A DNA stretch of 40,540 nucleotides from a virus: the IMG/VR virus record IMGVR_UViG_3300029770_000021; one strand, 5' to 3'. Positions 3,937 through 38,465 of the stretch are shown in pieces. The notes below the pieces were generated by a model that was given only the letters and a program-made list of their open reading frames with translations, ran no database searches and had not been told where the DNA came from. Both the position numbers and the translations under genes were made by a program. Numbering within the stretch: the stretch's first letter is position 1; every line of letters starts with the position of its first letter.

Positions 3937-4698
3937 ATGCCGAACAGGATCATTAAGGATAGCATCAGGACGAGCAAAAGCATCAACGCAATGTCGGATT
4001 TCCAGTTCCGATTGTGGGCGTACCTGATTACCTACGTTGATGATTATGGGCGCGGAAGCGCAGACCCGGAATTGCTCAAAGGCTTTGTATTCCCCCGCAG
4101 AAAAGGTGTGACTGAGGGAACGATCAGTAAGACGCTTGCAGAATTGGCGACCATAGGCTCTGTGATCCTCTATGAAGTTGACGGAGAACCGTACCTATGT
4201 TTTCCAAACTGGAGCGAACACCAGACGGTGAGGAACAAAGTAAGCAAATTCCCGGCACCTGCTGACGGATTGATTACATCTGAAATCAATTGCAATCAAT
4301 TGCAAGCAGGTGAAAGCAAATGCGCCCGTAATCCAATCCAGAATCCAGAATCCAGAATCCAGAATCCAGAATCCAGAATCCAGAATCCAGAAGAAGTAGG
4401 CGGCGAGCCGCAAGCGGCATCCCCGCCGGTGGTTTCCATTCCGCTCAATGATGGCACTGAATATCCGGTATCTCAGGGGCAATGCCAGGAATGGGCAGGC
4501 GTGTACCCTGCTGTCGACGTGATACAGCAGTTGCGGAAGATGCGGGAATGGTGCCTGAATAACCCGGCGAAGCGGAAAACGGTGCGTGGAGTGCGCGGAT
4601 TCATTACCCGCTGGCTGGCGAAAGAACAAGATCGCGGTGGCCGTAAGGGCGCAAAAGGCCCCGGCAACAAATGCGAGGACGCTTGGGGGTATGTGTGA
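3937..4698 (+). CDS. Replisome organizer / replication initiator-like protein
   Basis: N-terminus IKDSIRTS..FQFRLWAYLITYVDDYGRGSADPELLKGFVFP...CFPNWSEHQ (DUF4373/DnaD-like pattern). C-terminus KRKTVRGVRGFITRWLAKEQ. Contains the 7-bp tandem repeat. Confidence 0.65.
   Translation: MPNRIIKDSIRTSKSINAMSDFQFRLWAYLITYVDDYGRGSADPELLKGFVFPRRKGVTEGTISKTLAELATIGSVILYEVDGEPYLCFPNWSEHQTVRNKVSKFPAPADGLITSEINCNQLQAGESKCARNPIQNPESRIQNPESRIQNPEEVGGEPQAASPPVVSIPLNDGTEYPVSQGQCQEWAGVYPAVDVIQQLRKMREWCLNNPAKRKTVRGVRGFITRWLAKEQDRGGRKGAKGPGNKCEDAWGYV
4335..4390 (+). repeat. Perfect tandem heptanucleotide repeat (AATCCAG)x8 inside the replisome-organizer CDS
   Basis: Eight exact copies from 4335 to 4390, plus a partial AATCC at 4330-4334. 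Read in frame it encodes IQNPESR repeats. Confidence 0.95.
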
Positions 4699-10183: not shown

Positions 10184-10405
10184 GTGAGTACATTCCCGGA
10201 ACGGCTACAGCGGCTCCGAGAAAGCAGACACCCGGTTGTCAGCCGGTATGTGGCATCTGAACTGATGGGGCTGAGCCGGGACGCGTTGAGACGGTACGAG
10301 CGAGGCACACGGGAACCGGGGCTGTCGGAGCTGAAACTGATTGCTGCGTATTACAACGTCAGTCTTGACCAGCTTTGCTGGGACGAAGGCGAGCGAAACT
10401 CTTAA
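10184..10405 (+). CDS. XRE-family HTH transcriptional regulator
   Basis: GTG start after GAGGTGA. FPERLQRLRESR...SELMGLSRDALRRYERGTREPGLSELKLIAAYYNVSLDQL is an HTH_3 pattern. Last gene before the non-coding region and the packaging genes. Confidence 0.75.
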   Translation: MSTFPERLQRLRESRHPVVSRYVASELMGLSRDALRRYERGTREPGLSELKLIAAYYNVSLDQLCWDEGERNS

Positions 10406-10555
10406 TTGTAGAGAAAATAAATGTTTCAAATTCCTCCATTTGGAGGAATGTTGACGAACAGATGTGCGAGAATGAGGGTGCGGGGTTATATCCGTATCCT
10501 CATTCTTTCCATCCATCCTTTCTTTCCTCCTGACCCCGGCGGATGCCGGGGATAT

Positions 10556-10627
10556 GCAGACGTAGCTCAGTTGGCAGAGCACCGCGCCAGGAGGTATGCG
10601 CAGGTTCAAGTCCTGCCGTCTGCACCA
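10556..10627 (+). ncRNA. tRNA-like element with canonical acceptor, D and T arms and encoded CCA, but no normal anticodon arm
   Basis: GCAGACG/CGTCTGC acceptor stem. D arm GCTCAGTTGGCAGAGC. T arm GCAGG-TTCAAGT-CCTGC. 3' ACCA. Only 19 nt lie between the D and T arms, where about 22-23 are needed, and no 5-bp/7-nt anticodon stem-loop can be drawn. Confidence 0.55.
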
Positions 10628-10800
10628 AATCCCAAAGCTGATAGCGTACAGGGGCAATATTGCGGCAAGCCCATACTTGGCGAGCGTTGTGTCCCGTCAG
10701 CAGGGCGTGGCTCCGCGAAGGGCCGTTCGATTTGCCCGCGTTGAATCGAGCGTTACTTAGAACACGTACCCGCTCCGGCGGGTACGCAAACGCGGGATAT

Positions 10801-10877
10801 AGGGGCGAATGTTCCAAGGCTGGCGAGGCGGTCTCCAAAACCGCTTGGGTGGGTTCGATTCCCAACCGTCCCTGCCA
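10801..10877 (+). tRNA. tRNA-Trp (anticodon CCA), non-canonical details
   Basis: AGGGGCG/CGTCCCT acceptor stem, G73 and CCA. Perfect anticodon arm GCGGT-CTCCAAA-ACCGC. T loop TTCGATT. Oddities: the D stem relies on G-U pairs, and one extra A (CCCAAC) follows the T stem. Confidence 0.6.
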
Positions 10878-11110
10878 ACTCTAAACGGAGTCACCAACGG
10901 AGTATAAACAAGTGGGGTAACCGTGGAAACCGGAGATATGCGGCATAGGTGCCCCGTAAGGGGAGACCACAGCGAGTGACGGGGACTTTCCCCGAAGTGC
11001 TAAAGCAGGGCAGGACTGCAATGCCGTACCAGATGTGCCCATTAGGGTGGGTAAAGTCTGCTATGTAAGGCCAAGGGGTGGGGGCTGGTAGCAAAACGAG
11101 GTGATGCCTT

Positions 11111-11449
11111 GTGATTGGAAAAACTTATACGCTGGAAGAAATGGACAAGCAGGTAAAAATCAATATGCGCCTGCTTGAAAAATTCAAGACCCAGCTTTGG
11201 GCTGAGTACGGATACACCGCGGAAAACATCATGAAGATGTTTGATACGCTGTATGAAGAACAACAGGAAGTAATGCCGTTACCGTGGTATGAGTATTGCT
11301 GCGGTGTAAGTGACACAAAAAAATGGAGTGGTGACAATGGCTGCAAGGCTGACAGACCGTCAAAAGAAGAAAATACTGGCGGACTATGTGCAGACCAGCA
11401 ACTATTGCGCCACAGCGAAAATCAACGGTGTGTCCGCAACGACCGTTAA
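11111..11449 (+). CDS. Hypothetical ORF overlapping the terS start
   Basis: GTG start after GAGGTGA. The first roughly 70 aa look protein-like. The last 113 nt overlap terS in another frame, so the true 3' end is uncertain. Confidence 0.3.
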   Translation: MIGKTYTLEEMDKQVKINMRLLEKFKTQLWAEYGYTAENIMKMFDTLYEEQQEVMPLPWYEYCCGVSDTKKWSGDNGCKADRPSKEENTGGLCADQQLLRHSENQRCVRNDR

Positions 11450-11759
11450 GAACCTCGTGCGGGCGAATGCCGACATTGTGGAAAAGTGCGAACAAAAAAA
11501 GGAAGAGAATACCGCCGATGTATTAGCGTACATGGATAAGCACAAAGACCTTGTGTGTTCGTTCATCGGCAAGGGGCTTGAAATGCTCAACGACCCGGAG
11601 AAGCTGGCGGCGGCAAATCTCAGCCAGATCACAACGGCGATGGGAACGCTGATTGACAAGTGGGCGATGATCGGCGGCAGTCCTGCCGACACAGTGAAGG
11701 AAGATGCGCTTAGTCAGAGCCTAAAGGAAATGGCAAAGGAGCTTGAGAGCGATGATTAA
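11337..11759 (+). CDS. terS: Terminase small subunit
   Basis: MAARLTDRQKKKILADYVQTSNYCATAKINGVSATTVKNLV is an HTH-type TerS N-terminus. Located just upstream of terL. Confidence 0.8.
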   Translation: MAARLTDRQKKKILADYVQTSNYCATAKINGVSATTVKNLVRANADIVEKCEQKKEENTADVLAYMDKHKDLVCSFIGKGLEMLNDPEKLAAANLSQITTAMGTLIDKWAMIGGSPADTVKEDALSQSLKEMAKELESDD

Positions 11760-12060
11760 GATTTACGGTTGCAGCGATGACCTTGTGGAAATTTACGGTA
11801 GCGTTTACAAAGAAGACGAAATCGGCTGTTTTGACCATGATGTTCGTATCCGTTTTTTTGATGGGACGATTATCCGTATTGGCTATCCCAAAAAGGACTT
11901 AGGCGTTTGGTGGATTGAGGTTGAAAAACAAGGGACAGCAAAACAGGCGTTGACATTATGTGATAACGAAGATGACGATATTTATAGTGACATCTTCGAA
12001 ATTGACGCGGAGATTAAAAGCCATTCTGTGATTAAGCAGAAATATCCGGACAGACCATGA
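11752..12060 (+). CDS. Hypothetical protein between terS and terL
   Basis: MIKIYGCSDDLVEIYG...DGTIIRIGY...VWWIEV. Coupled at both ends. Confidence 0.6.
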   Translation: MIKIYGCSDDLVEIYGSVYKEDEIGCFDHDVRIRFFDGTIIRIGYPKKDLGVWWIEVEKQGTAKQALTLCDNEDDDIYSDIFEIDAEIKSHSVIKQKYPDRP

Positions 12061-13337
12061 TTAGCCACAAGCAGAAAAAAATCCTCGCATTTCCATACAG
12101 CCGCTATGATGCCTTGATATGTGACGGTGCCGTGCGTTCCGGCAAGACCTCTATCATGATGTGGGCGTTTGTCCGCTGGGCAATGGAGAATTTCAGCGGT
12201 CAGCGCTTCGGCGTGTGTGGTCGCACGGTGGATAGTTGCACCAAGAACATCATTGTGCCGTTCACGGCAATGAGCCTTGCCAAAGAGCGTTATATCATTC
12301 GCTGGCGGCGCGGTGACAAGGTTATGGAAGTGCGGCGCGGAGCCGTGACAAATTACTTTGAAGTGTTCGGCGGCAAGGACGAGGCGAGCTATACACTGAT
12401 CCAAGGCCGCACACTGGCGGGTGTGTTGCTGGACGAGGTGGTATTGATGCCACGCTCATTCGTGGAACAGGCGCTTGCACGTTGCTCCGTTGACGGCGCG
12501 CGGCTGTGGTTCTCTTGTAACCCCGGCAGCCCACACCACTGGTTCTATCAGGAGTGGATCAAGCGGAGCCGTGAGCGTAATGCACTGTATCTACACTTTG
12601 AAATGACGGACAACCCCGGCCTGAGCAAGCGCACCCTTGAACGGTACGAGAATATGTATGCCGGTATATTTTATGACCGGTATGTGCGCGGCCTGTGGGT
12701 AGCGGCAGAGGGCATCGTTTATAAGGACTTCGCCAACGATACAGAAAAGTATTTGATCGGAGACCCTTTGGAGTGGGCCAAGCAAAACGGCACCAGCTTC
12801 TCAATCATTTCAATTGGCGTTGACTTCGGTGGCACAAAATCTGCAACGAAATTTCAGGCCACCGGGATTACAAAAGATTTCCGGGTTGTGGCGTTGGAAG
12901 AAGAATACATCAAAAACGAAGAGATTGACCCGGATGCATTAAACCGGCGTTTTGCTACGTTCTGCCAGCTGATAACGTCAAAGTATGGTTACAGCCAGAC
13001 ACGAGCGGATAGCGCGGAAACGGTGCTTATACGAGGGTTAGATCACACGGCACAAAAACTCCGGCTGGGTACCCAAGTCAAGAACGCGCTGAAAATGCAA
13101 ATCACAGACAGAATTCGGCTGGTAGTGTTGCTGATGAAGCAGGGGCGGTTCAAAGTTTCCAGAAACTGCCCACATCTGATCGATGCACTGCAATCCGCTA
13201 TTTATGATCCTGATAAATTTGAGGACGAGCGCTTGGATGATGGCACGTCCGACATCGACAGCTTGGATGCCTTTGAGTACAGCATTGAGCCTTATTACAA
13301 AGACCTGGAACGTGCCGGTCACATGATGGGACGGTGA
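12057..13337 (+). CDS. terL: Terminase large subunit
   Basis: Walker A CDGAVRSGKTS, LLDEV (Walker B-like), 426 aa. PBSX/SPP1-type architecture by eye. Confidence 0.92.
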   Translation: MISHKQKKILAFPYSRYDALICDGAVRSGKTSIMMWAFVRWAMENFSGQRFGVCGRTVDSCTKNIIVPFTAMSLAKERYIIRWRRGDKVMEVRRGAVTNYFEVFGGKDEASYTLIQGRTLAGVLLDEVVLMPRSFVEQALARCSVDGARLWFSCNPGSPHHWFYQEWIKRSRERNALYLHFEMTDNPGLSKRTLERYENMYAGIFYDRYVRGLWVAAEGIVYKDFANDTEKYLIGDPLEWAKQNGTSFSIISIGVDFGGTKSATKFQATGITKDFRVVALEEEYIKNEEIDPDALNRRFATFCQLITSKYGYSQTRADSAETVLIRGLDHTAQKLRLGTQVKNALKMQITDRIRLVVLLMKQGRFKVSRNCPHLIDALQSAIYDPDKFEDERLDDGTSDIDSLDAFEYSIEPYYKDLERAGHMMGR

Positions 13338-13341
13338 AATA

Positions 13342-14745
13342 GTGAATATTCGCAGAGCATTAAAGGATCTTGGGTTTGACACGGTCGACAGCAAATTTTA
13401 CTCTCTGATCGACCTGTGGGACGCATGGTATAAGGGAAACGTTGAAGATTTCCACAGCTATACGGTGTGGAATGGCATTGAAGAGCTGGAGTGCCACCGT
13501 TATTCGGTTGGAATGGGAAAGAAAGTCTGCGAGGATTGGGCCAACCTCCTAATGAACGAGCGAGTCAACATCACGCTTGAAGGCAAACAGGAACAGGAAT
13601 TTATCGATACTGTTTTTGCCGATAACAATTGGGAGGTCAAGGCTAACGAATCGCAGGAGCGCAAAGCGGCAGTAGGAACCGTTGCGTATGTGCCGGTGAT
13701 GGAAGGCATGGGAATTAACCCAGATACAGCAGAAATTATTGATTCTGGCCGCATTCGCATCAACTACGTCAGCGCCGGGAACATCTACCCGCTGACGTGG
13801 GATAACGGTGTTATTCGCGAGTGCGCGTTCGCATCCACTCGGAAGGTCGATGACACAGAATATACTTACATCCAGGTGCACAGGCTGCGCAACGGCGAGT
13901 ATGACATTGAGAACCATCTGTATGATGCAGAGGAAATCCCGCTGGCCAGCGTGAAAGGGTTTGAGACAATTCCTCCGGTGGTTCATACCGGCAGCGACAA
14001 GCCACAGTTTGTGATCGACCGGCTGAACATTGCAAACTCTGACGAAAACAACCCGCTTGGCGTGGCTGTGTTTGCCCACGCCATCGACCAACTTAAGAGC
14101 GTTGACATTACCTATGATAGCTATGTGAACGAATTTGTGTTGGGCAAGAAGCGCATTGTGGTGCAGCCGGAGGCAACCAAAAGCATCGACGGTCGGCCAG
14201 TGTTTGATAAGCGTGAGACCGTTTATTATGTACTTCCGGAGGACAGAGGCGGCAACGGCAACATCTTACAGCAGGTCGATATGTCGCTGCGGACAGCGGA
14301 GTTTAACACCGGTATGCAAGATATGTTGAACATCCTGTCCAGCAAGTGCGGTTTCGGTGAGAACCATTACAAATTCAATCAGGGCAGCATCGCAACGGCC
14401 ACGCAGGTCATCAGCGAGAACAGCACCCTGTTCCGCACGATCAAAAAACATGAAATTGTGCTTGAACAGGCAATTACAGAGTTGTGCCGGAGCTTGCTCC
14501 GCATGGGGAATCGGTACATGGGCGCATCCCTCAATGAGGACGTCCAGATCTCCATTGACTTTGACGATTCCATCATTGAGGACAAGGGTCAGGACTTTAA
14601 CCGTGACGTGCAGCTTCTTAACGCTGGCATCATGAACGATTGGGAGTTCCGTATGCGCTGGATGAATGAGGACGAGGCGACCGCAAAGGCAGCGTTGCCA
14701 AAGGCACAGGACATGGTGACCGAGGAAGAAACGGAGGTAGAGTAA
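13342..14745 (+). CDS. Portal protein (SPP1 gp6-like)
   Basis: 467 aa, immediately after terL, with an acidic C-terminus. Size and position are typical. Confidence 0.85.
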   Translation: MNIRRALKDLGFDTVDSKFYSLIDLWDAWYKGNVEDFHSYTVWNGIEELECHRYSVGMGKKVCEDWANLLMNERVNITLEGKQEQEFIDTVFADNNWEVKANESQERKAAVGTVAYVPVMEGMGINPDTAEIIDSGRIRINYVSAGNIYPLTWDNGVIRECAFASTRKVDDTEYTYIQVHRLRNGEYDIENHLYDAEEIPLASVKGFETIPPVVHTGSDKPQFVIDRLNIANSDENNPLGVAVFAHAIDQLKSVDITYDSYVNEFVLGKKRIVVQPEATKSIDGRPVFDKRETVYYVLPEDRGGNGNILQQVDMSLRTAEFNTGMQDMLNILSSKCGFGENHYKFNQGSIATATQVISENSTLFRTIKKHEIVLEQAITELCRSLLRMGNRYMGASLNEDVQISIDFDDSIIEDKGQDFNRDVQLLNAGIMNDWEFRMRWMNEDEATAKAALPKAQDMVTEEETEVE

Positions 14746-36688: not shown

Positions 36689-38029
36689 CTAACTTGGCGT
36701 TACAAAAAACGCACCGTCATTGTCTGCGTCGATGCGCTGGATTGTGCGTACCCAAAATTCCTTTTTTGCCTGCCGGTCTAAATCAGGATATTCCTTCAAT
36801 TCCCGCCGTAATGTTTCAAGGTCAAATTCTTTTATAGGCTCCGGGTTTATTGTCGCGAGTTGCTGTTTTAATTCCGTATAGTCTTTTTTGTATTCTTCGA
36901 TTTCAATCAAATCCGACAGATACAGGTCTTTCAGTTTTTGCATTTTCCGCTTGATTTGCTCCGCCGTTTTGGGCGGCTTTTTTTCTGCGGTTTTTGATTT
37001 GGAGTAATACTTTTTTGCGATCCCCTCAAATTCTCTCAGAAGGTAATCCTCAAGCACATCTTCTCGGATTCTGAGGATGTGCGGGCAGTCGGCTGGGTCA
37101 AGTGTGTGCGTTCTGCATCGGTAGTACTTGTACACCTGCTTTACAGTCTCCGGCTGCATATTTCTACCGCACTCCCGGCAACGGAGAATTCCGGTAAACA
37201 AATATATTCGATCCGCACTGGCGTTCCGCTGGCTTCGCCGTTCCAAGATTTTCCCAGCAAGGTCGAAAGTTTCTCGATCGACAAGCGCGGGCAATGCGTT
37301 TTCCACGCCGAACGCCTCACCTAAGTACAGGCGGCTTCTCAACGCATCCTTGTATTTGTTGTACGAGCGTTTGATCCCCCACTCCGTTGCCATATACCGC
37401 CTTAGCGCAAGGATGCTTTGCAGCCGTATAAAGGCTGGGAACATATCTCGCGCCGCATCTGCGGTTTTTTCATCAATGTCGTAGCGCCGGTTCTTCACGC
37501 AGATTCCGATAGGAGTTTTCCCGTTGGTGGGCTGGCCCTTTGCCCTCTTGCCCTCGTTGATGGCCTTAATGCGCTCCGATGTGCGGTCAGCTTCGTCCTG
37601 CGCTACCGACAACATAATATTGACCTTCAATCGCCCTGATGCAGTCCGCGTTTCGTAGTCCTCTCTAATGGCCTGCCAATCCACATGATTTTTGTCGAGA
37701 ACCTCTTGCACGGCGTAGTACCCCGCCACATTCCGAAACCACCTATCCAGCTTGACAAAAAGGATGGTGTCGATTTTCCCGGCGCGGCAATCATCAAGCA
37801 GGCGCATCAAGGCCGGACGCTTTTTATACGGCTTTCTGGCGCTGATTCCGGCGTCCTCGTAAATACCCACCACCTCCATGCCGTGTGCGGCGGCATATGC
37901 AATCAGGGCATCACGCTGGTCTGCCAGGGACAGGCCGTGCTTCGCCTGTTCTTCGGTCGATACCCTGATGTACAGTGCTACACGGATGCGTAGATTATTT
38001 GGTAGAGTGACCACTATTTTTTGGCACAT
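36689..38029 (-). CDS. Large serine recombinase (integrase)
   Basis: ALYIRVSTEEQAKHGLSLADQ (catalytic Ser region), a recombinase domain, and the zinc ribbon LRCRECGRNM...YYRCRTH. GGAGGGG lies 6 nt before ATG 38029. Confidence 0.92.
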   Translation of the reverse strand: MCQKIVVTLPNNLRIRVALYIRVSTEEQAKHGLSLADQRDALIAYAAAHGMEVVGIYEDAGISARKPYKKRPALMRLLDDCRAGKIDTILFVKLDRWFRNVAGYYAVQEVLDKNHVDWQAIREDYETRTASGRLKVNIMLSVAQDEADRTSERIKAINEGKRAKGQPTNGKTPIGICVKNRRYDIDEKTADAARDMFPAFIRLQSILALRRYMATEWGIKRSYNKYKDALRSRLYLGEAFGVENALPALVDRETFDLAGKILERRSQRNASADRIYLFTGILRCRECGRNMQPETVKQVYKYYRCRTHTLDPADCPHILRIREDVLEDYLLREFEGIAKKYYSKSKTAEKKPPKTAEQIKRKMQKLKDLYLSDLIEIEEYKKDYTELKQQLATINPEPIKEFDLETLRRELKEYPDLDRQAKKEFWVRTIQRIDADNDGAFFVTPS

Positions 38030-38030
38030 G

Positions 38031-38465
38031 TTATCCCCTCCAAAATCCATAGTTGGCACAATGGATGTCAACCCAAACGCACCAGGCAAAAAGCCCGATG
38101 ATCAATAGTGACAAACCGAGTATGATCCACCTGTATAGCTTCACGGAGTGCCAAAGATTGCACAGTTCTGTGTCCATCAGGCCGATGGTCTGCCGTTTGT
38201 TCTCAAGGCGGTGTTCTAGTCCGTCCTTTTCCGCTTGCAACGTTTCCTCACTGGCCGTCAGATGATCTCCGATGCCGTAAAATGCATCCAGCGACACGCC
38301 AAGGACGGCGCATATTGGCCCAACCGTGGAGATATAGGGGGCCTTGGAAGCATGGGTAAAGAAATTGTTGACGGTAGACGGCGGAATCCCCGATGCTTCA
38401 GCTATGTCCTGAATGGTCATACCCAAAGCGTTACGTTTCGCCTTACAAACTTCCTGAATTGTCAT
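38031..38465 (-). CDS. Membrane-anchored XRE-family HTH regulator
   Basis: AAGGAGG SD. MTIQEVCKAKRNALGMTIQDIAEASGIPPSTVNNFF is the HTH, followed by a coiled coil and a C-terminal TM helix (WIILGLSLLIIGLFAWCVWV). Its stop lies 1 nt from the int ATG. Confidence 0.8.
   Translation of the reverse strand: MTIQEVCKAKRNALGMTIQDIAEASGIPPSTVNNFFTHASKAPYISTVGPICAVLGVSLDAFYGIGDHLTASEETLQAEKDGLEHRLENKRQTIGLMDTELCNLWHSVKLYRWIILGLSLLIIGLFAWCVWVDIHCANYGFWRG

What the first reader, a model, noticed from the sequence alone, without database searches (positions are those of the whole stretch)
10406..11110. About 700-nt non-coding, hairpin-dense region with tRNA-like modules: candidate large ornate RNA (ROOL/GOLLD-like?)
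Seen: between the last early gene and the packaging genes there is no SD-preceded ORF for about 700 nt. The track ORFs here are short, overlapping and on both strands. The region is packed with perfect stems: TTCCTCCA/TGGAGGAA at 10431-48, AGAATGAGG/CCTCATTCT at 10469-10507, CCCCGGC-GGAT-GCCGGGG at 10534-51, a nested CCCGCGTT/AACGCGGG around GTACCCGC-TCCG-GCGGGTAC at 10735-10796, a GUAA-tetraloop hairpin GGTGCCCC-GTAA-GGGGAGACC, and GGGGA-CTT-TCCCC. It also holds short direct repeats (AACGGAGT x2, CGAGCGTT x2) and two tRNA-shaped modules. Established: the very large ROOL and GOLLD RNAs occur in Firmicutes prophages, typically next to or containing tRNAs. Inference: this may be such an RNA or a new class. 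A pac or regulatory region is the alternative.
Basis: partly seen in the sequence, partly recalled or inferred. Interest (0 to 1): 0.8.

Follow-up and report, generated by a model that had tools for sequence, protein, structure and literature searches.

The report
Phage array of tRNA-shaped small RNAs
The 700-base gene-free gap is not one giant ornate RNA but a string of separate tRNA-shaped RNA genes, one of which is a widely shared, previously uncatalogued 92-base RNA of gut phages whose function is unknown.

Summary
Window 10406-11110 has no credible ORF, every hairpin and repeat listed is present, and the + strand folds better than shuffles (z -3.8).

The ROOL/GOLLD reading does not hold. 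No Rfam model other than tRNA matches, even at E<=10. The region is a mosaic of self-contained cassettes that occur in different combinations in over 140 gut-phage contigs.

Cassettes in order:
- a leader with two hairpins;
- a tRNA-derived RNA whose anticodon arm is replaced (10556-10627);
- a structured spacer;
- tRNA-Trp(CCA) (10801-10877);
- an unstructured 62-nt spacer;
- a 92-nt four-way-junction RNA with an acceptor-like stem and encoded ACCA (10940-11031);
- a conserved 5'-UTR hairpin element (11037-11097) next to the first late gene's ribosome-binding site.

The 92-nt RNA has compensatory changes in all four helices. 98% of cells pair, against about 40% in slid controls, and it has no Rfam family. 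All three tRNA-shaped units follow an AUAU leader, and 75-90% of 79 units across the arrays carry each position of that leader. I infer RNase P processing into separate small RNAs. The role of the two anticodon-less RNAs is unresolved: decoy, scaffold or processing punctuation.

The parts
10184..10405 (+). Last upstream gene: a small HTH_3 (XRE-type) regulator. It is the gene most consistently linked to the array.
   Evidence: Pfam HTH_3 E 1.3e-10. PHROG transcriptional regulator. Homologues (median 53% identity) lie about 620 nt upstream of the core in 57 of 137 loci.
10430..10449 (.). Perfect palindrome ATTCCTCCA-TT-TGGAGGAAT, 25 nt after the HTH gene's stop codon. It may be a protein operator or a hairpin. 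It is not part of the widely shared cassettes.
   Evidence: Read from the sequence. Among unique contexts it is shared only with L096. No T-run follows, and the terminator scan is negative.
10462..10555 (+). Leader cassette: a long hairpin (10469-10506), a CU-rich tract (10507-10533), the hairpin CCCCGGC-GGAT-GCCGGGG (10534-10551), then AUAU (10552-10555).
   Evidence: MFE -44.5 kcal/mol, z -4.26. It is conserved together with the following tRNA-like unit in about 23 loci.
10556..10627 (+). tRNA-derived RNA (72 nt with encoded ACCA). The acceptor, D and T arms are intact. The anticodon arm and variable loop are replaced by the 19-nt insert ACCGCGCCAGGAGGUAUGC (10581-10599), which displays GGAGG.
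   Evidence: Rfam tRNA 52.1 bits, with the anticodon arm not aligned. ARAGORN calls it only at a relaxed threshold, with a 4-bp stem containing a mismatch and no U33. The family has at least 10 unrelated insert classes of 13-31 nt, and up to about 40 nt in the 93-nt units seen by ARAGORN. Acceptor and T stems covary.
10628..10800 (+). Structured spacer cassette. It holds a degenerate T-arm-like segment (GGGCCGUUCGAUUUGCCC) and the nested hairpin 10735-10796, and ends in AUAU (10797-10800).
   Evidence: Shared with only 7-8 loci. It also lies before tRNA-Trp in L040. Relaxed ARAGORN sees a weak tRNA-like fold at 10657-10745. No Rfam match. Fold z is only -0.9.
10801..10877 (+). tRNA-Trp (anticodon CCA), 77 nt with encoded GCCA. 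The anticodon stem-loop is canonical. The D stem is weak, and there is one extra C between the T stem and the acceptor 3' strand.
   Evidence: ARAGORN default call. The best Rfam match is tRNA-Sec at 36.8 bits, below its gathering score of 47. Identical or variant copies occur in over 17 loci. The acceptor changes compensate: AGGGGCG/CGTCCCT versus ACGGGCA/TGTCCGT.
10878..10939 (+). Unstructured A-rich spacer with three A(A/C)CGGAG repeats, ending in AUAU (10936-10939). In other phages the same spacer follows tRNA-Gln instead of tRNA-Trp.
   Evidence: MFE -8.2 kcal/mol, z +1.23. Shared with 13 loci. It lies at a fixed distance between a tRNA and the core. No ribozyme match.
10940..11031 (+). 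Core: a 92-nt four-way-junction, tRNA-shaped RNA.
- P1, acceptor-like: 10940-46 paired with 11021-27, followed by A + CCA at 11028-31.
- P2, GNRA-capped: 10948-10968.
- P3: 10971-11001, with the conserved internal loop AGUGAC/GAAG and a variable tip.
- P4, T-arm-like, 4 bp with the 7-nt loop GGCAGGA: 11005-11019.
   Evidence: The MFE structure is this cloverleaf, z -3.2. On 92 distinct sequences, 98.1% of cells pair versus 37-47% in slid controls. Twelve pairs change on both sides versus 1.5 in shuffles (0 of 500). In L124 P1 is entirely replaced and GCCA is still kept. CM R1 scores the window copy at 131 bits and finds one copy per locus in 55 of the 56 sources searched, with none in L002. 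No Rfam family matches.
11037..11097 (+). 5'-UTR element E. It comprises hairpin H1 (GCCC-AUUA-GGGU, 11037-11048), GGGUAAAGUC, and hairpin H2 (11059-11093) with the G-rich loop AAGGGGUGGG. It lies directly before the ribosome-binding site (about 11099-11105) and the GTG at 11111.
   Evidence: Present downstream of the core in 105 of 130 loci that have enough sequence. It is always the last element before the RBS and start codon of differing first late genes. H2 covaries, with G-U intermediates, between two variants: CUGCUA..UAGCA versus CUGUUAC..GUGACA.

Best explanation
The gap is an 'RNA island' at the early/late boundary of a temperate gut siphophage, probably of an Oscillospiraceae host. 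It is a row of independent cassettes, not one RNA.

Three cassettes are tRNA-shaped genes:
- a tRNA-derived RNA whose anticodon arm has been swapped for an unrelated 19-nt insert;
- a probably functional tRNA-Trp(CCA);
- a 92-nt four-way-junction RNA with an acceptor-like stem, an encoded NCCA end, a GNRA-capped arm, an arm with a conserved loop-E-like internal loop, and a T-arm-like hairpin, but no anticodon.

Shown: the folds, their covariation, their mosaic distribution, the conserved A-U-A-U leader before each unit, and the encoded NCCA.

Inferred:
- The primary transcript is cut by host RNase P at 10555/10556, 10800/10801 and 10939/10940. 3' trimming then releases separate small RNAs and the spacers between them.
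- The tRNA-Trp supplements translation.
- The two anticodon-less RNAs keep only the tRNA 'top half'. They therefore work through tRNA-handling machinery rather than decoding. They could be processing punctuation that defines the ends of neighbouring RNAs and of the late mRNA. They could instead be stable scaffolds or decoys that present a conserved or variable arm to a partner.
- The final element E is a 5'-UTR hairpin that belongs to the late operon's leader.
For: 1. No ORF in the gap, phage context.
2. Rfam and ARAGORN find tRNA-type units only.
4. Covariation in all four helices of the core. Frequent G-U pairs fix the + strand as the functional RNA.
5. Mosaic flanks and variable cassette order. 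There is one core per locus.
6. Leader consensus across 79 unique units: -4 A 75%, -3 U 73%, -2 A 90%, -1 U 80%. A(-4) is at least 90% conserved before the core. This fits the leader preference I recall for Bacillus-type RNase P, which is my knowledge and was not tested.
7. NCCA is kept as ACCA, UCCA or GCCA even where P1 is fully replaced.
8. The tRNA-derived family keeps covarying acceptor and T stems, while the anticodon arm is replaced by at least 10 unrelated inserts.
9. In L081 a drum RNA (82 bits) abuts the 5' end of the core, in the position where drum RNAs usually have a terminator (PMC5737381). This fits a role in 3'-end processing.
10. Some phages have an intrinsic terminator right after the core, as expected for a discrete small-RNA gene.
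11. E sits before the RBS of unrelated first late genes.
Against: - There is no transcript or processing data, so RNase P cleavage is inference only.
- No sigma-70-type promoter or terminator was found in the window's gap, so the transcription unit is unknown.
- In one array type an extended -10 (TGGTATAAT) lies between the core and E. The core is therefore not always part of the late leader.
- The core's T-like loop GGCAGGA is not a canonical T-loop, and its P2 has no D-loop GG. A tRNA-like L-shape is plausible but not shown.
- The strong sequence conservation of the core's internal loop and P4 loop is more than a mere processing signal needs, so a specific unknown partner is implied.
- The closest cultured relative by portal protein, Acutalibacter phage Fontainebleau, has no such array. 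The array is therefore dispensable for this phage type.
Confidence: 0.65

Rival explanations
1. One large ornate RNA of the ROOL/GOLLD kind, or a new class of that size. The roughly 700 nt would fold as a single multi-domain molecule with embedded tRNAs.
For: Phage location next to tRNAs, as described for ROOL and GOLLD (PMC12286853, PMC5737381). High overall structure, z -3.8. GOLLD can carry tRNAs in a variable linker (PMC12286853).
Against: - No match to any large-RNA model even at E<=10.
- The segments have independent distributions, from 8 to 121 of 121 loci, and are re-ordered or replaced between phages.
- Each conserved unit closes on its own terminal helix.
- One spacer is unstructured.
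- No long-range covariation was seen. The CU tract versus GGAGG loop test was negative.
Confidence: 0.04
2. An ordinary decaying tRNA gene cluster. It would hold one working tRNA-Trp plus tRNA pseudogenes and leftover sequence, with no function for the anticodon-less units.
For: - Unit 1 lacks a usable anticodon arm.
- The spacer 10628-10800 carries a degenerate T-arm-like stretch.
- Canonical tRNAs (Asn, Thr) with the same scaffold exist in sister arrays.
Against: - Decay would hit all arms. Here acceptor and T stems stay paired through compensatory changes, while only the anticodon arm is replaced.
- The core is kept at about 85% column identity, with compensatory changes, in over 140 contigs from human, Hadza and rabbit samples.
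- The NCCA end and the AUAU leader are conserved.
Confidence: 0.12
3. A DNA-level site. The region would be the terminase recognition (pac/cos) site or a protein-bound regulatory region of the late operon, and the hairpins would be incidental.
For: - Position directly upstream of the small and large terminase genes.
- Direct repeats A(A/C)CGGAG three times in an unstructured spacer.
- A perfect palindrome after an HTH gene.
- A G-rich block in E.
Against: - Covariation in the core and in E includes many G-U pairs, which exist only on the + strand RNA.
- The repeats and the palindrome are among the least widely shared parts.
- The cassettes move relative to the terminase genes.
- This could still hold for the spacer or the palindrome alone.
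Confidence: 0.1
4. A purely cis-acting late-operon leader. The core and E would act on the transcribing polymerase or on the mRNA, through processive antitermination like HK022 put RNA, or through mRNA stabilisation, rather than as free small RNAs.
For: - E always abuts the first late RBS.
- In 18 loci including the window, the core is only about 15 nt from E.
- Some arrays have a terminator just after the core, the layout expected for an antitermination element.
Against: - The core can be separated from E by up to 860 nt, by tRNA genes, and in one array type by a promoter-like TGGTATAAT.
- The encoded NCCA and acceptor-like stem have no role in a put-like mechanism.
- The core occurs without E in 25 of 130 loci.
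Confidence: 0.09

Closest known systems
Phage tRNA clusters that also encode small stable RNAs of unknown function (T4 RNAC and RNAD)
   Same: Small non-tRNA RNAs are encoded within or beside a phage tRNA cluster. They are expressed with it, and their function is still unknown (PMC9697503). From my own knowledge, the T4 RNAs are matured by the host tRNA-processing enzymes.
   Different: No sequence or structure relationship was tested or is evident. T4 is a virulent coliphage. Here the host is a gut Clostridia lineage, the array is mosaic, and the core is a four-way junction with an encoded NCCA.
ROOL (RF03087) and GOLLD (RF01998) large ornate RNAs
   Same: Encoded by phages and prophages, often near tRNA islands, with unknown function (PMC12286853, PMC5737381).
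   Different: No covariance-model match. Those RNAs are about 580-800 nt and form a single fold with many junctions and pseudoknots. Here the largest conserved unit is 92 nt and the cassettes assort independently.
drum RNA (RF02958)
   Same: A highly conserved small RNA of unknown function. It occurs as a cassette in the same arrays, directly 5' of the core in L081 (82 bits).
   Different: It is absent from the window and its fold differs. drum RNAs normally end in a terminator (PMC5737381), whereas the core ends in NCCA.
c4 antisense RNA of phages P1/P7 (RF01695)
   Same: From my own knowledge, it is a phage regulatory RNA whose ends form an acceptor-like stem with CCA, and it is released from a longer transcript by RNase P.
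   Different: No Rfam C4 match. No complementary target was found for the core's loops. TCCUGCC occurs only inside a T stem of unit 1 and is not conserved there.
tRNA-like processing signals (mascRNA at the MALAT1 3' end; mitochondrial tRNA punctuation) and the engineered 'tRNA scaffold'
   Same: A tRNA-shaped element lacking decoding function recruits RNase P/Z to define the ends of neighbouring RNAs. An anticodon arm is replaced by a foreign insert while the top half ensures processing and stability. Both points rest on my own knowledge.
   Different: Those cases are eukaryotic, organellar or artificial. Rfam mascRNA gives only a chance-level hit on the tRNA-Trp T arm (14.7 bits against a gathering score of 42.5).

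Membership tests
ROOL RNA (RF03087) | Match to the Rfam covariance model at or above its gathering score | tested here: not met
   No hit at gathering score on the whole window, and none at E<=10 on 10300-11250. None in 12 related loci.
ROOL RNA (RF03087) | [quoted passage not shown] | tested here: not met
   The region splits into independently distributed cassettes. The largest conserved fold is 92 nt with one junction.
GOLLD RNA (RF01998) | Match to the Rfam model, which captures the universally conserved 3' domain | tested here: not met
   No hit.
HEARO RNA (RF02033) | Match to the Rfam model | tested here: not met
   No hit.
tRNA (RF00005), unit 10556-10627 | Cloverleaf with acceptor, D and T arms scoring above the gathering score | tested here: met
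   52.1 bits against 29.
tRNA (RF00005), unit 10556-10627 | 5-bp anticodon stem and 7-nt loop with U33 and a conserved anticodon | tested here: not met
   The anticodon arm is left unaligned by the model. ARAGORN calls it only at a relaxed threshold, with a 4-bp stem containing a G.A mismatch and G at position 33. The 'anticodon' varies (CCA, CCC, CCG) among close relatives.
tRNA, unit 10801-10877 (tRNA-Trp) | Cloverleaf with a canonical anticodon stem-loop (CU-CCA-AA) | tested here: met
   ARAGORN default call. The stem GCGGU/ACCGC is perfect.
tRNA, unit 10801-10877 (tRNA-Trp) | Canonical 7/5 acceptor/T-stem geometry and a 4-bp D stem | tested here: inconclusive
   There is an extra C between the T stem and the acceptor 3' strand, a G:A at the T-stem base, and a weak D stem. 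The best Rfam model is tRNA-Sec, below its threshold. The oddities are conserved in variants that carry compensatory acceptor changes.
tRNA, core 10940-11031 | 7-bp acceptor stem followed by a discriminator and CCA | tested here: met
   P1 pairs in 99.2% of cells. NCCA is present in most of the 92 variants and in the most divergent member.
tRNA, core 10940-11031 | Anticodon loop, T-loop (UUCRANY) and D-loop GG; match to a tRNA model | tested here: not met
   No tRNA-clan hit. The P3 tip varies in length and sequence, the P4 loop is GGCAGGA, and P2 ends in a GNRA tetraloop.
HDV-like (theta) ribozyme following a phage tRNA | Nested double-pseudoknot ribozyme starting right after the tRNA 3' end | tested here: not met
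   No HDV-family hit at E<=10. The 62-nt spacer after tRNA-Trp is predicted unstructured, z +1.2. By inspection no P1/P3/P1.1 arrangement fits. The published theta descriptor was not available, so that exact motif was not run.
drum RNA (RF02958) | Match to the Rfam model | tested here: not met
   Absent from the window. Present in the related locus L081 next to the core.
RNase P substrate | Cleavage by RNase P at the 5' end of the acceptor-like stem | not testable with these tools
   Only indirect evidence: an acceptor plus T-like coaxial pair, an encoded NCCA, and a conserved A(-4)/U(-1) leader.

The most novel reading that the evidence does not exclude
Gut phages may carry a modular family of tRNA 'top-half' mimics. 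Each would keep an acceptor stem, NCCA and a T-type arm, while the decoding arm is replaced. In the tRNA-derived units the replacement is a hypervariable insert. In the 92-nt core it is a conserved loop-E-like arm.

These RNAs would be made in quantity by the host tRNA-processing machinery. They would act in trans in one of two ways:
- as decoys for host factors or immune toxins that attack tRNA acceptor or CCA ends;
- as natural tRNA scaffolds that display regulatory loops, for example the GGAGG loop of unit 1, to the ribosome or to mRNAs.
Probability: 0.2. Interest if true: 0.8.

Novelty: new variant of a known kind. Interest (0 to 1): 0.55.

Why it matters
Phage tRNA islands are usually read as codon-supply devices. 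This array shows selection for tRNA shape without decoding. One 92-nt RNA is conserved across more than 140 gut-phage contigs and has no family in Rfam 15. A second, tRNA-derived family has an anticodon arm that is freely exchanged.

If these RNAs are processed and stable, they form a new class of abundant phage small RNAs in a dominant group of human gut bacteria. They would also be a natural counterpart of the engineered tRNA scaffold. They could bear on how phages handle tRNA-directed host defences, or on how phages punctuate long non-coding leaders.

For the scan itself, the result corrects an attractive but wrong assignment to ROOL/GOLLD.

Tried and rejected
- **ROOL/GOLLD/HEARO or any other Rfam family.** Searched at gathering score and at E<=10. 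Only tRNA-clan hits and chance-level noise appeared.
- **tmRNA.** ARAGORN found none.
- **HDV-like 'theta' ribozyme after the tRNA.** No model hit, the spacer is unstructured, and no pseudoknot topology fits by eye.
- **Hammerhead, twister or K-turn readings of the core's AGUGAC/GAAG loop.** Rejected by inspection. A bulged-G/loop-E-like reading fits best but is only inference.
- **Long-range pairing of the CU-rich tract (CCUCCUG) with the GGAGG loop of unit 1.** No covariation when the loop changes to CCGGGAGG or CCCGGAGG.
- **c4-like antisense targets for the core's P4 loop.** No conserved complement was found.
- **A P4 first-pair variant scan.** Returned nothing.
- **Sigma-70 promoter and terminator scan of the gap.** No + strand site inside it.
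- **A protein partner in the window.** Pfam on 55 ORFs shows ordinary temperate-siphophage functions, including serine recombinase, SSB, methylases, RusA, a sigma-70 region-4 protein and head and tail proteins. No RNA-processing or RNA-binding enzyme appears in the 25 families listed.
- **Contig ends near the core as evidence of a cos site.** Dropped. The stored loci are cut inside contigs.
- **Overlap with published catalogues.** Supplements of Fremin 2023 and Weinberg 2017 are not held.
- **The closest cultured relative, Acutalibacter phage Fontainebleau.** It has no array.
Full report
**Observation.** Window 10406-11110 lies between a small HTH_3 regulator gene (10184-10405) and the packaging genes: a candidate small terminase at 11337-11759, large terminase at 12057-13337 and portal at 13342-14745. 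Only short overlapping ORFs on both strands fall inside it. The + strand folds to -283.6 kcal/mol, z -3.81. The - strand gives -252.9, z -2.84.

**Known families.** cmscan of the whole window against Rfam 15 at gathering score gives one hit, tRNA at 10556-10624 (52.1 bits). ARAGORN gives one gene, tRNA-Trp(CCA) at 10801-10877. A permissive scan (E<=10) of 10300-11250 adds only a sub-threshold tRNA-Sec match on the Trp gene, mirror-image tRNA artefacts and noise. There is nothing for ROOL, GOLLD, HEARO, c4, HDV-like or other ribozymes. Twelve related loci also lack ROOL and GOLLD.

**Relatives.** blastn against GenBank phages found two unannotated human-gut phage contigs. Each shares a different piece of the gap at 90% identity. 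A looser pattern brought further variants. In the GTDB species representatives, a 20-mer from the same site hits four MAG contigs: two Oscillospiraceae, one rabbit Clostridia, and one labelled Staphylococcaceae. The window's portal protein is closest, among cultured phages, to Acutalibacter (Oscillospiraceae) phage Fontainebleau at 43% identity. That phage has no such gap.

**Mosaic anatomy.** Mapping the window onto 121 related loci shows step-like coverage:

| Segment | Loci sharing it |
|---|---|
| 10335-10555 | about 23 |
| 10556-10627 | about 33 |
| 10630-10800 | 8 |
| 10801-10877 | 17-24 |
| 10878-10935 | 13 |
| 10940-11031 | all (by selection) |
| 11045-11098 | 85 |

The flanks of the shared core differ completely between phages. 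The number and kind of tRNA or tRNA-like genes vary, as does the distance from the core to the last block, which ranges from 14 to about 860 nt. This is the signature of independent cassettes, not of one co-evolving large RNA.

**The core (10940-11031).** Its minimum-energy fold is a four-way junction (z -3.2).
- P1 is GCGGCAU/AUGCCGU, followed by A-CCA.
- P2 is GGU-G-CCCC-GUAA-GGGG-AG-ACC.
- P3 is AGCG-[AGUGAC]-GGGGA-CUU-UCCCC-[GAAG]-UGCU.
- P4 is GCAG-GGCAGGA-CUGC.

On 92 distinct sequences, 98.1% of cells pair, against 37-47% when partners are slid. Twelve of the 26 pairs change on both sides, against 1.5 in shuffles (0 of 500). Examples of compensatory change:
- L130: P1 GUGGCGC/GCGCCGC and P4 GCGG/CCGC.
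- L134: P1 GCAACAU/AUGUUGC, P2 CC..CACC-GAAA-GGUG..GG and P4 GCCG/CGGC.
- L125: P2 base GAU/AUC.
- L124 (rabbit): P1 wholly replaced by GGCAUAU/AUAUGCC, yet still followed by GCCA.

Abundant G-U pairs (38 at the first P1 pair, 48 in P3) show that the + strand RNA is the selected form. The GNRA loop on P2, the internal loop AGUGAC/GAAG, the P4 loop and the junction As are nearly invariant, while the P3 tip varies freely. A model built from the alignment (R1) finds exactly one copy in each of the 55 sources that hold the core, including the window at 131 bits, and none in L002. The RNA has a tRNA's ends and overall shape but no anticodon, T-loop or D-loop. No tRNA or other Rfam model recognises it.

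**The tRNA-derived unit (10556-10627).** The acceptor (GCAGACG/CGUCUGC), D arm, T arm and ACCA are canonical. Between the D arm and T stem there are only 19 nt (ACCGCGCCAGGAGGUAUGC), and these cannot form a normal anticodon arm. Across the arrays this scaffold carries at least ten unrelated insert classes of 13-31 nt, and up to about 40 nt in the 93-nt units. A few members are canonical tRNAs. Acceptor stems (GCAGACG, GGCAUUG, GCUAUCG, GGUUUCG...) and T stems (GCUGG, GCAGG, GUGGG...) stay paired throughout. That pattern argues for selection on the tRNA top half, not for decay. The commonest class, which includes the window's, always keeps GGAGG. A test for pairing with the upstream CU-rich tract showed no covariation.

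**tRNA-Trp (10801-10877).** The anticodon stem-loop is canonical. The D stem is weak, and one extra C lies between the T stem and the acceptor. These oddities persist in variants that have compensatory acceptor changes. I take it to be a functional, if unusual, tRNA.

**Processing signals.** Each of the three units is preceded by a hairpin and AUAU, at 10552-55, 10797-800 and 10936-39. Over 79 unique tRNA or tRNA-like units in the arrays, the leader is A (75%), U (73%), A (90%), U (80%) at positions -4 to -1. A(-4) is at least 90% conserved before the core. All three units encode NCCA. From my own knowledge, U(-1), A(-4) and a 3' RCCA are the leader and trailer features favoured by bacterial, Bacillus-type RNase P. 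I therefore infer RNase P cleavage at each unit, but nothing here tests it.

In L081 a drum RNA (RF02958, 82 bits) abuts the 5' end of the core, where drum RNAs normally carry a terminator (PMC5737381). This fits a 3'-end-forming 'punctuation' role. In other phages a terminator follows the core directly.

**Element E (11037-11097).** It has two hairpins, the second with a G-rich loop. It occurs downstream of the core in 105 of 130 loci. It always lies immediately before the RBS and start codon of whichever gene opens the late operon. Two sequence variants covary through G-U intermediates. I read it as a 5'-UTR element of the late operon. Its mechanism (stabiliser or regulator target) is unknown. 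In one array type, an extended -10 (TGGTATAAT) lies between the core and E.

**Spacers.** 10628-10800 is a rarely shared, partly tRNA-like structured spacer. 10878-10939 is unstructured (z +1.2) and carries three A(A/C)CGGAG repeats. In sister phages it follows tRNA-Gln instead of tRNA-Trp. A DNA or protein-binding role for these repeats, and for the palindrome at 10430-10449, is not excluded.

**Comparison and verdict.** The nearest precedents are phage tRNA clusters that also encode small stable RNAs of unknown function, such as T4 RNAC and RNAD (PMC9697503), and the RNase P-processed c4 RNA of P1 (my knowledge). ROOL and GOLLD share only the neighbourhood (PMC12286853). A large catalogue of IMG/VR structured-RNA candidates mentions tRNA-like motifs (PMC10690425). 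Its tables are not held, so overlap could not be checked. The window encodes no obvious RNA-handling protein.

I conclude that the finding is a real and fairly interesting RNA island. It contains an uncatalogued, well-supported 92-nt tRNA-shaped RNA family and a tRNA-scaffold family. The ROOL/GOLLD-like interpretation is wrong. The function of the anticodon-less RNAs remains inference.

Noticed in passing
L006 (stored + strand) about 4345-4680; L002 2670-3000; also L040, L065, L099, L139: A conserved non-coding module of about 340 nt (GAUGUAUGCUACCGCAUUGCGG...) sits between the core or a tRNA and element E in several sister phages. It has no Rfam match at gathering score and is absent from the window. 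It is a better candidate for a larger structured RNA than anything in the window.
   Followed up: partly
L081 10186-10291 (- strand); also L026, L032, L046, L123 by sequence: A drum RNA (RF02958, 82 bits) lies directly 5' of the core, with no terminator between them. L081 also carries a gut-2 RNA at 2114-2161, and L143 has a borderline SpF41 match.
   Followed up: partly
L027 351-425: The 5' part of element E is fused to the 3' end of a core (..AAGGGGCGGGGGCUGCAAUGCCGUACCA). This is an apparent recombination junction between the two conserved blocks.
   Followed up: no
window 10430-10449: A perfect 9+9 palindrome, ATTCCTCCA-TT-TGGAGGAAT, lies 25 nt after the stop codon of the HTH_3 gene. It may be the operator of that regulator. 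It is shared with very few relatives.
   Followed up: partly
window 10507-10533 and 10588-10596: A CU-rich tract containing CCUCCUG lies 55 nt upstream of a tRNA-like loop containing CAGGAGG. They are complementary, but loop variants (CCGGGAGG, CCCGGAGG) are not compensated.
   Followed up: yes
window 10899-10921: A Shine-Dalgarno-like GGAGU is followed 9 nt later by a two-codon mini-ORF, GUG-GGG-UAA, inside the unstructured spacer. This may be chance.
   Followed up: no
window 36689-38089 (- strand): Pfam finds Resolvase and Zn_ribbon_recom domains among the window's ORFs. The 466-aa minus-strand ORF here is the likely serine recombinase, but this was not checked per ORF. If so, the phage is temperate.
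   Followed up: partly
window ORFs (Pfam family list): One ORF carries sigma-70 region 4 domains (Sigma70_r4_2). A phage sigma-like factor could drive the array or the late operon from a non-sigma-70 promoter. That would explain the negative promoter scan. Which ORF carries the domains was not determined.
   Followed up: no
L015-type arrays, about 47 nt after the core: An extended -10 motif, TGGTATAAT, lies between the core and element E in about 21 loci, suggesting an internal promoter in that array type.
   Followed up: partly
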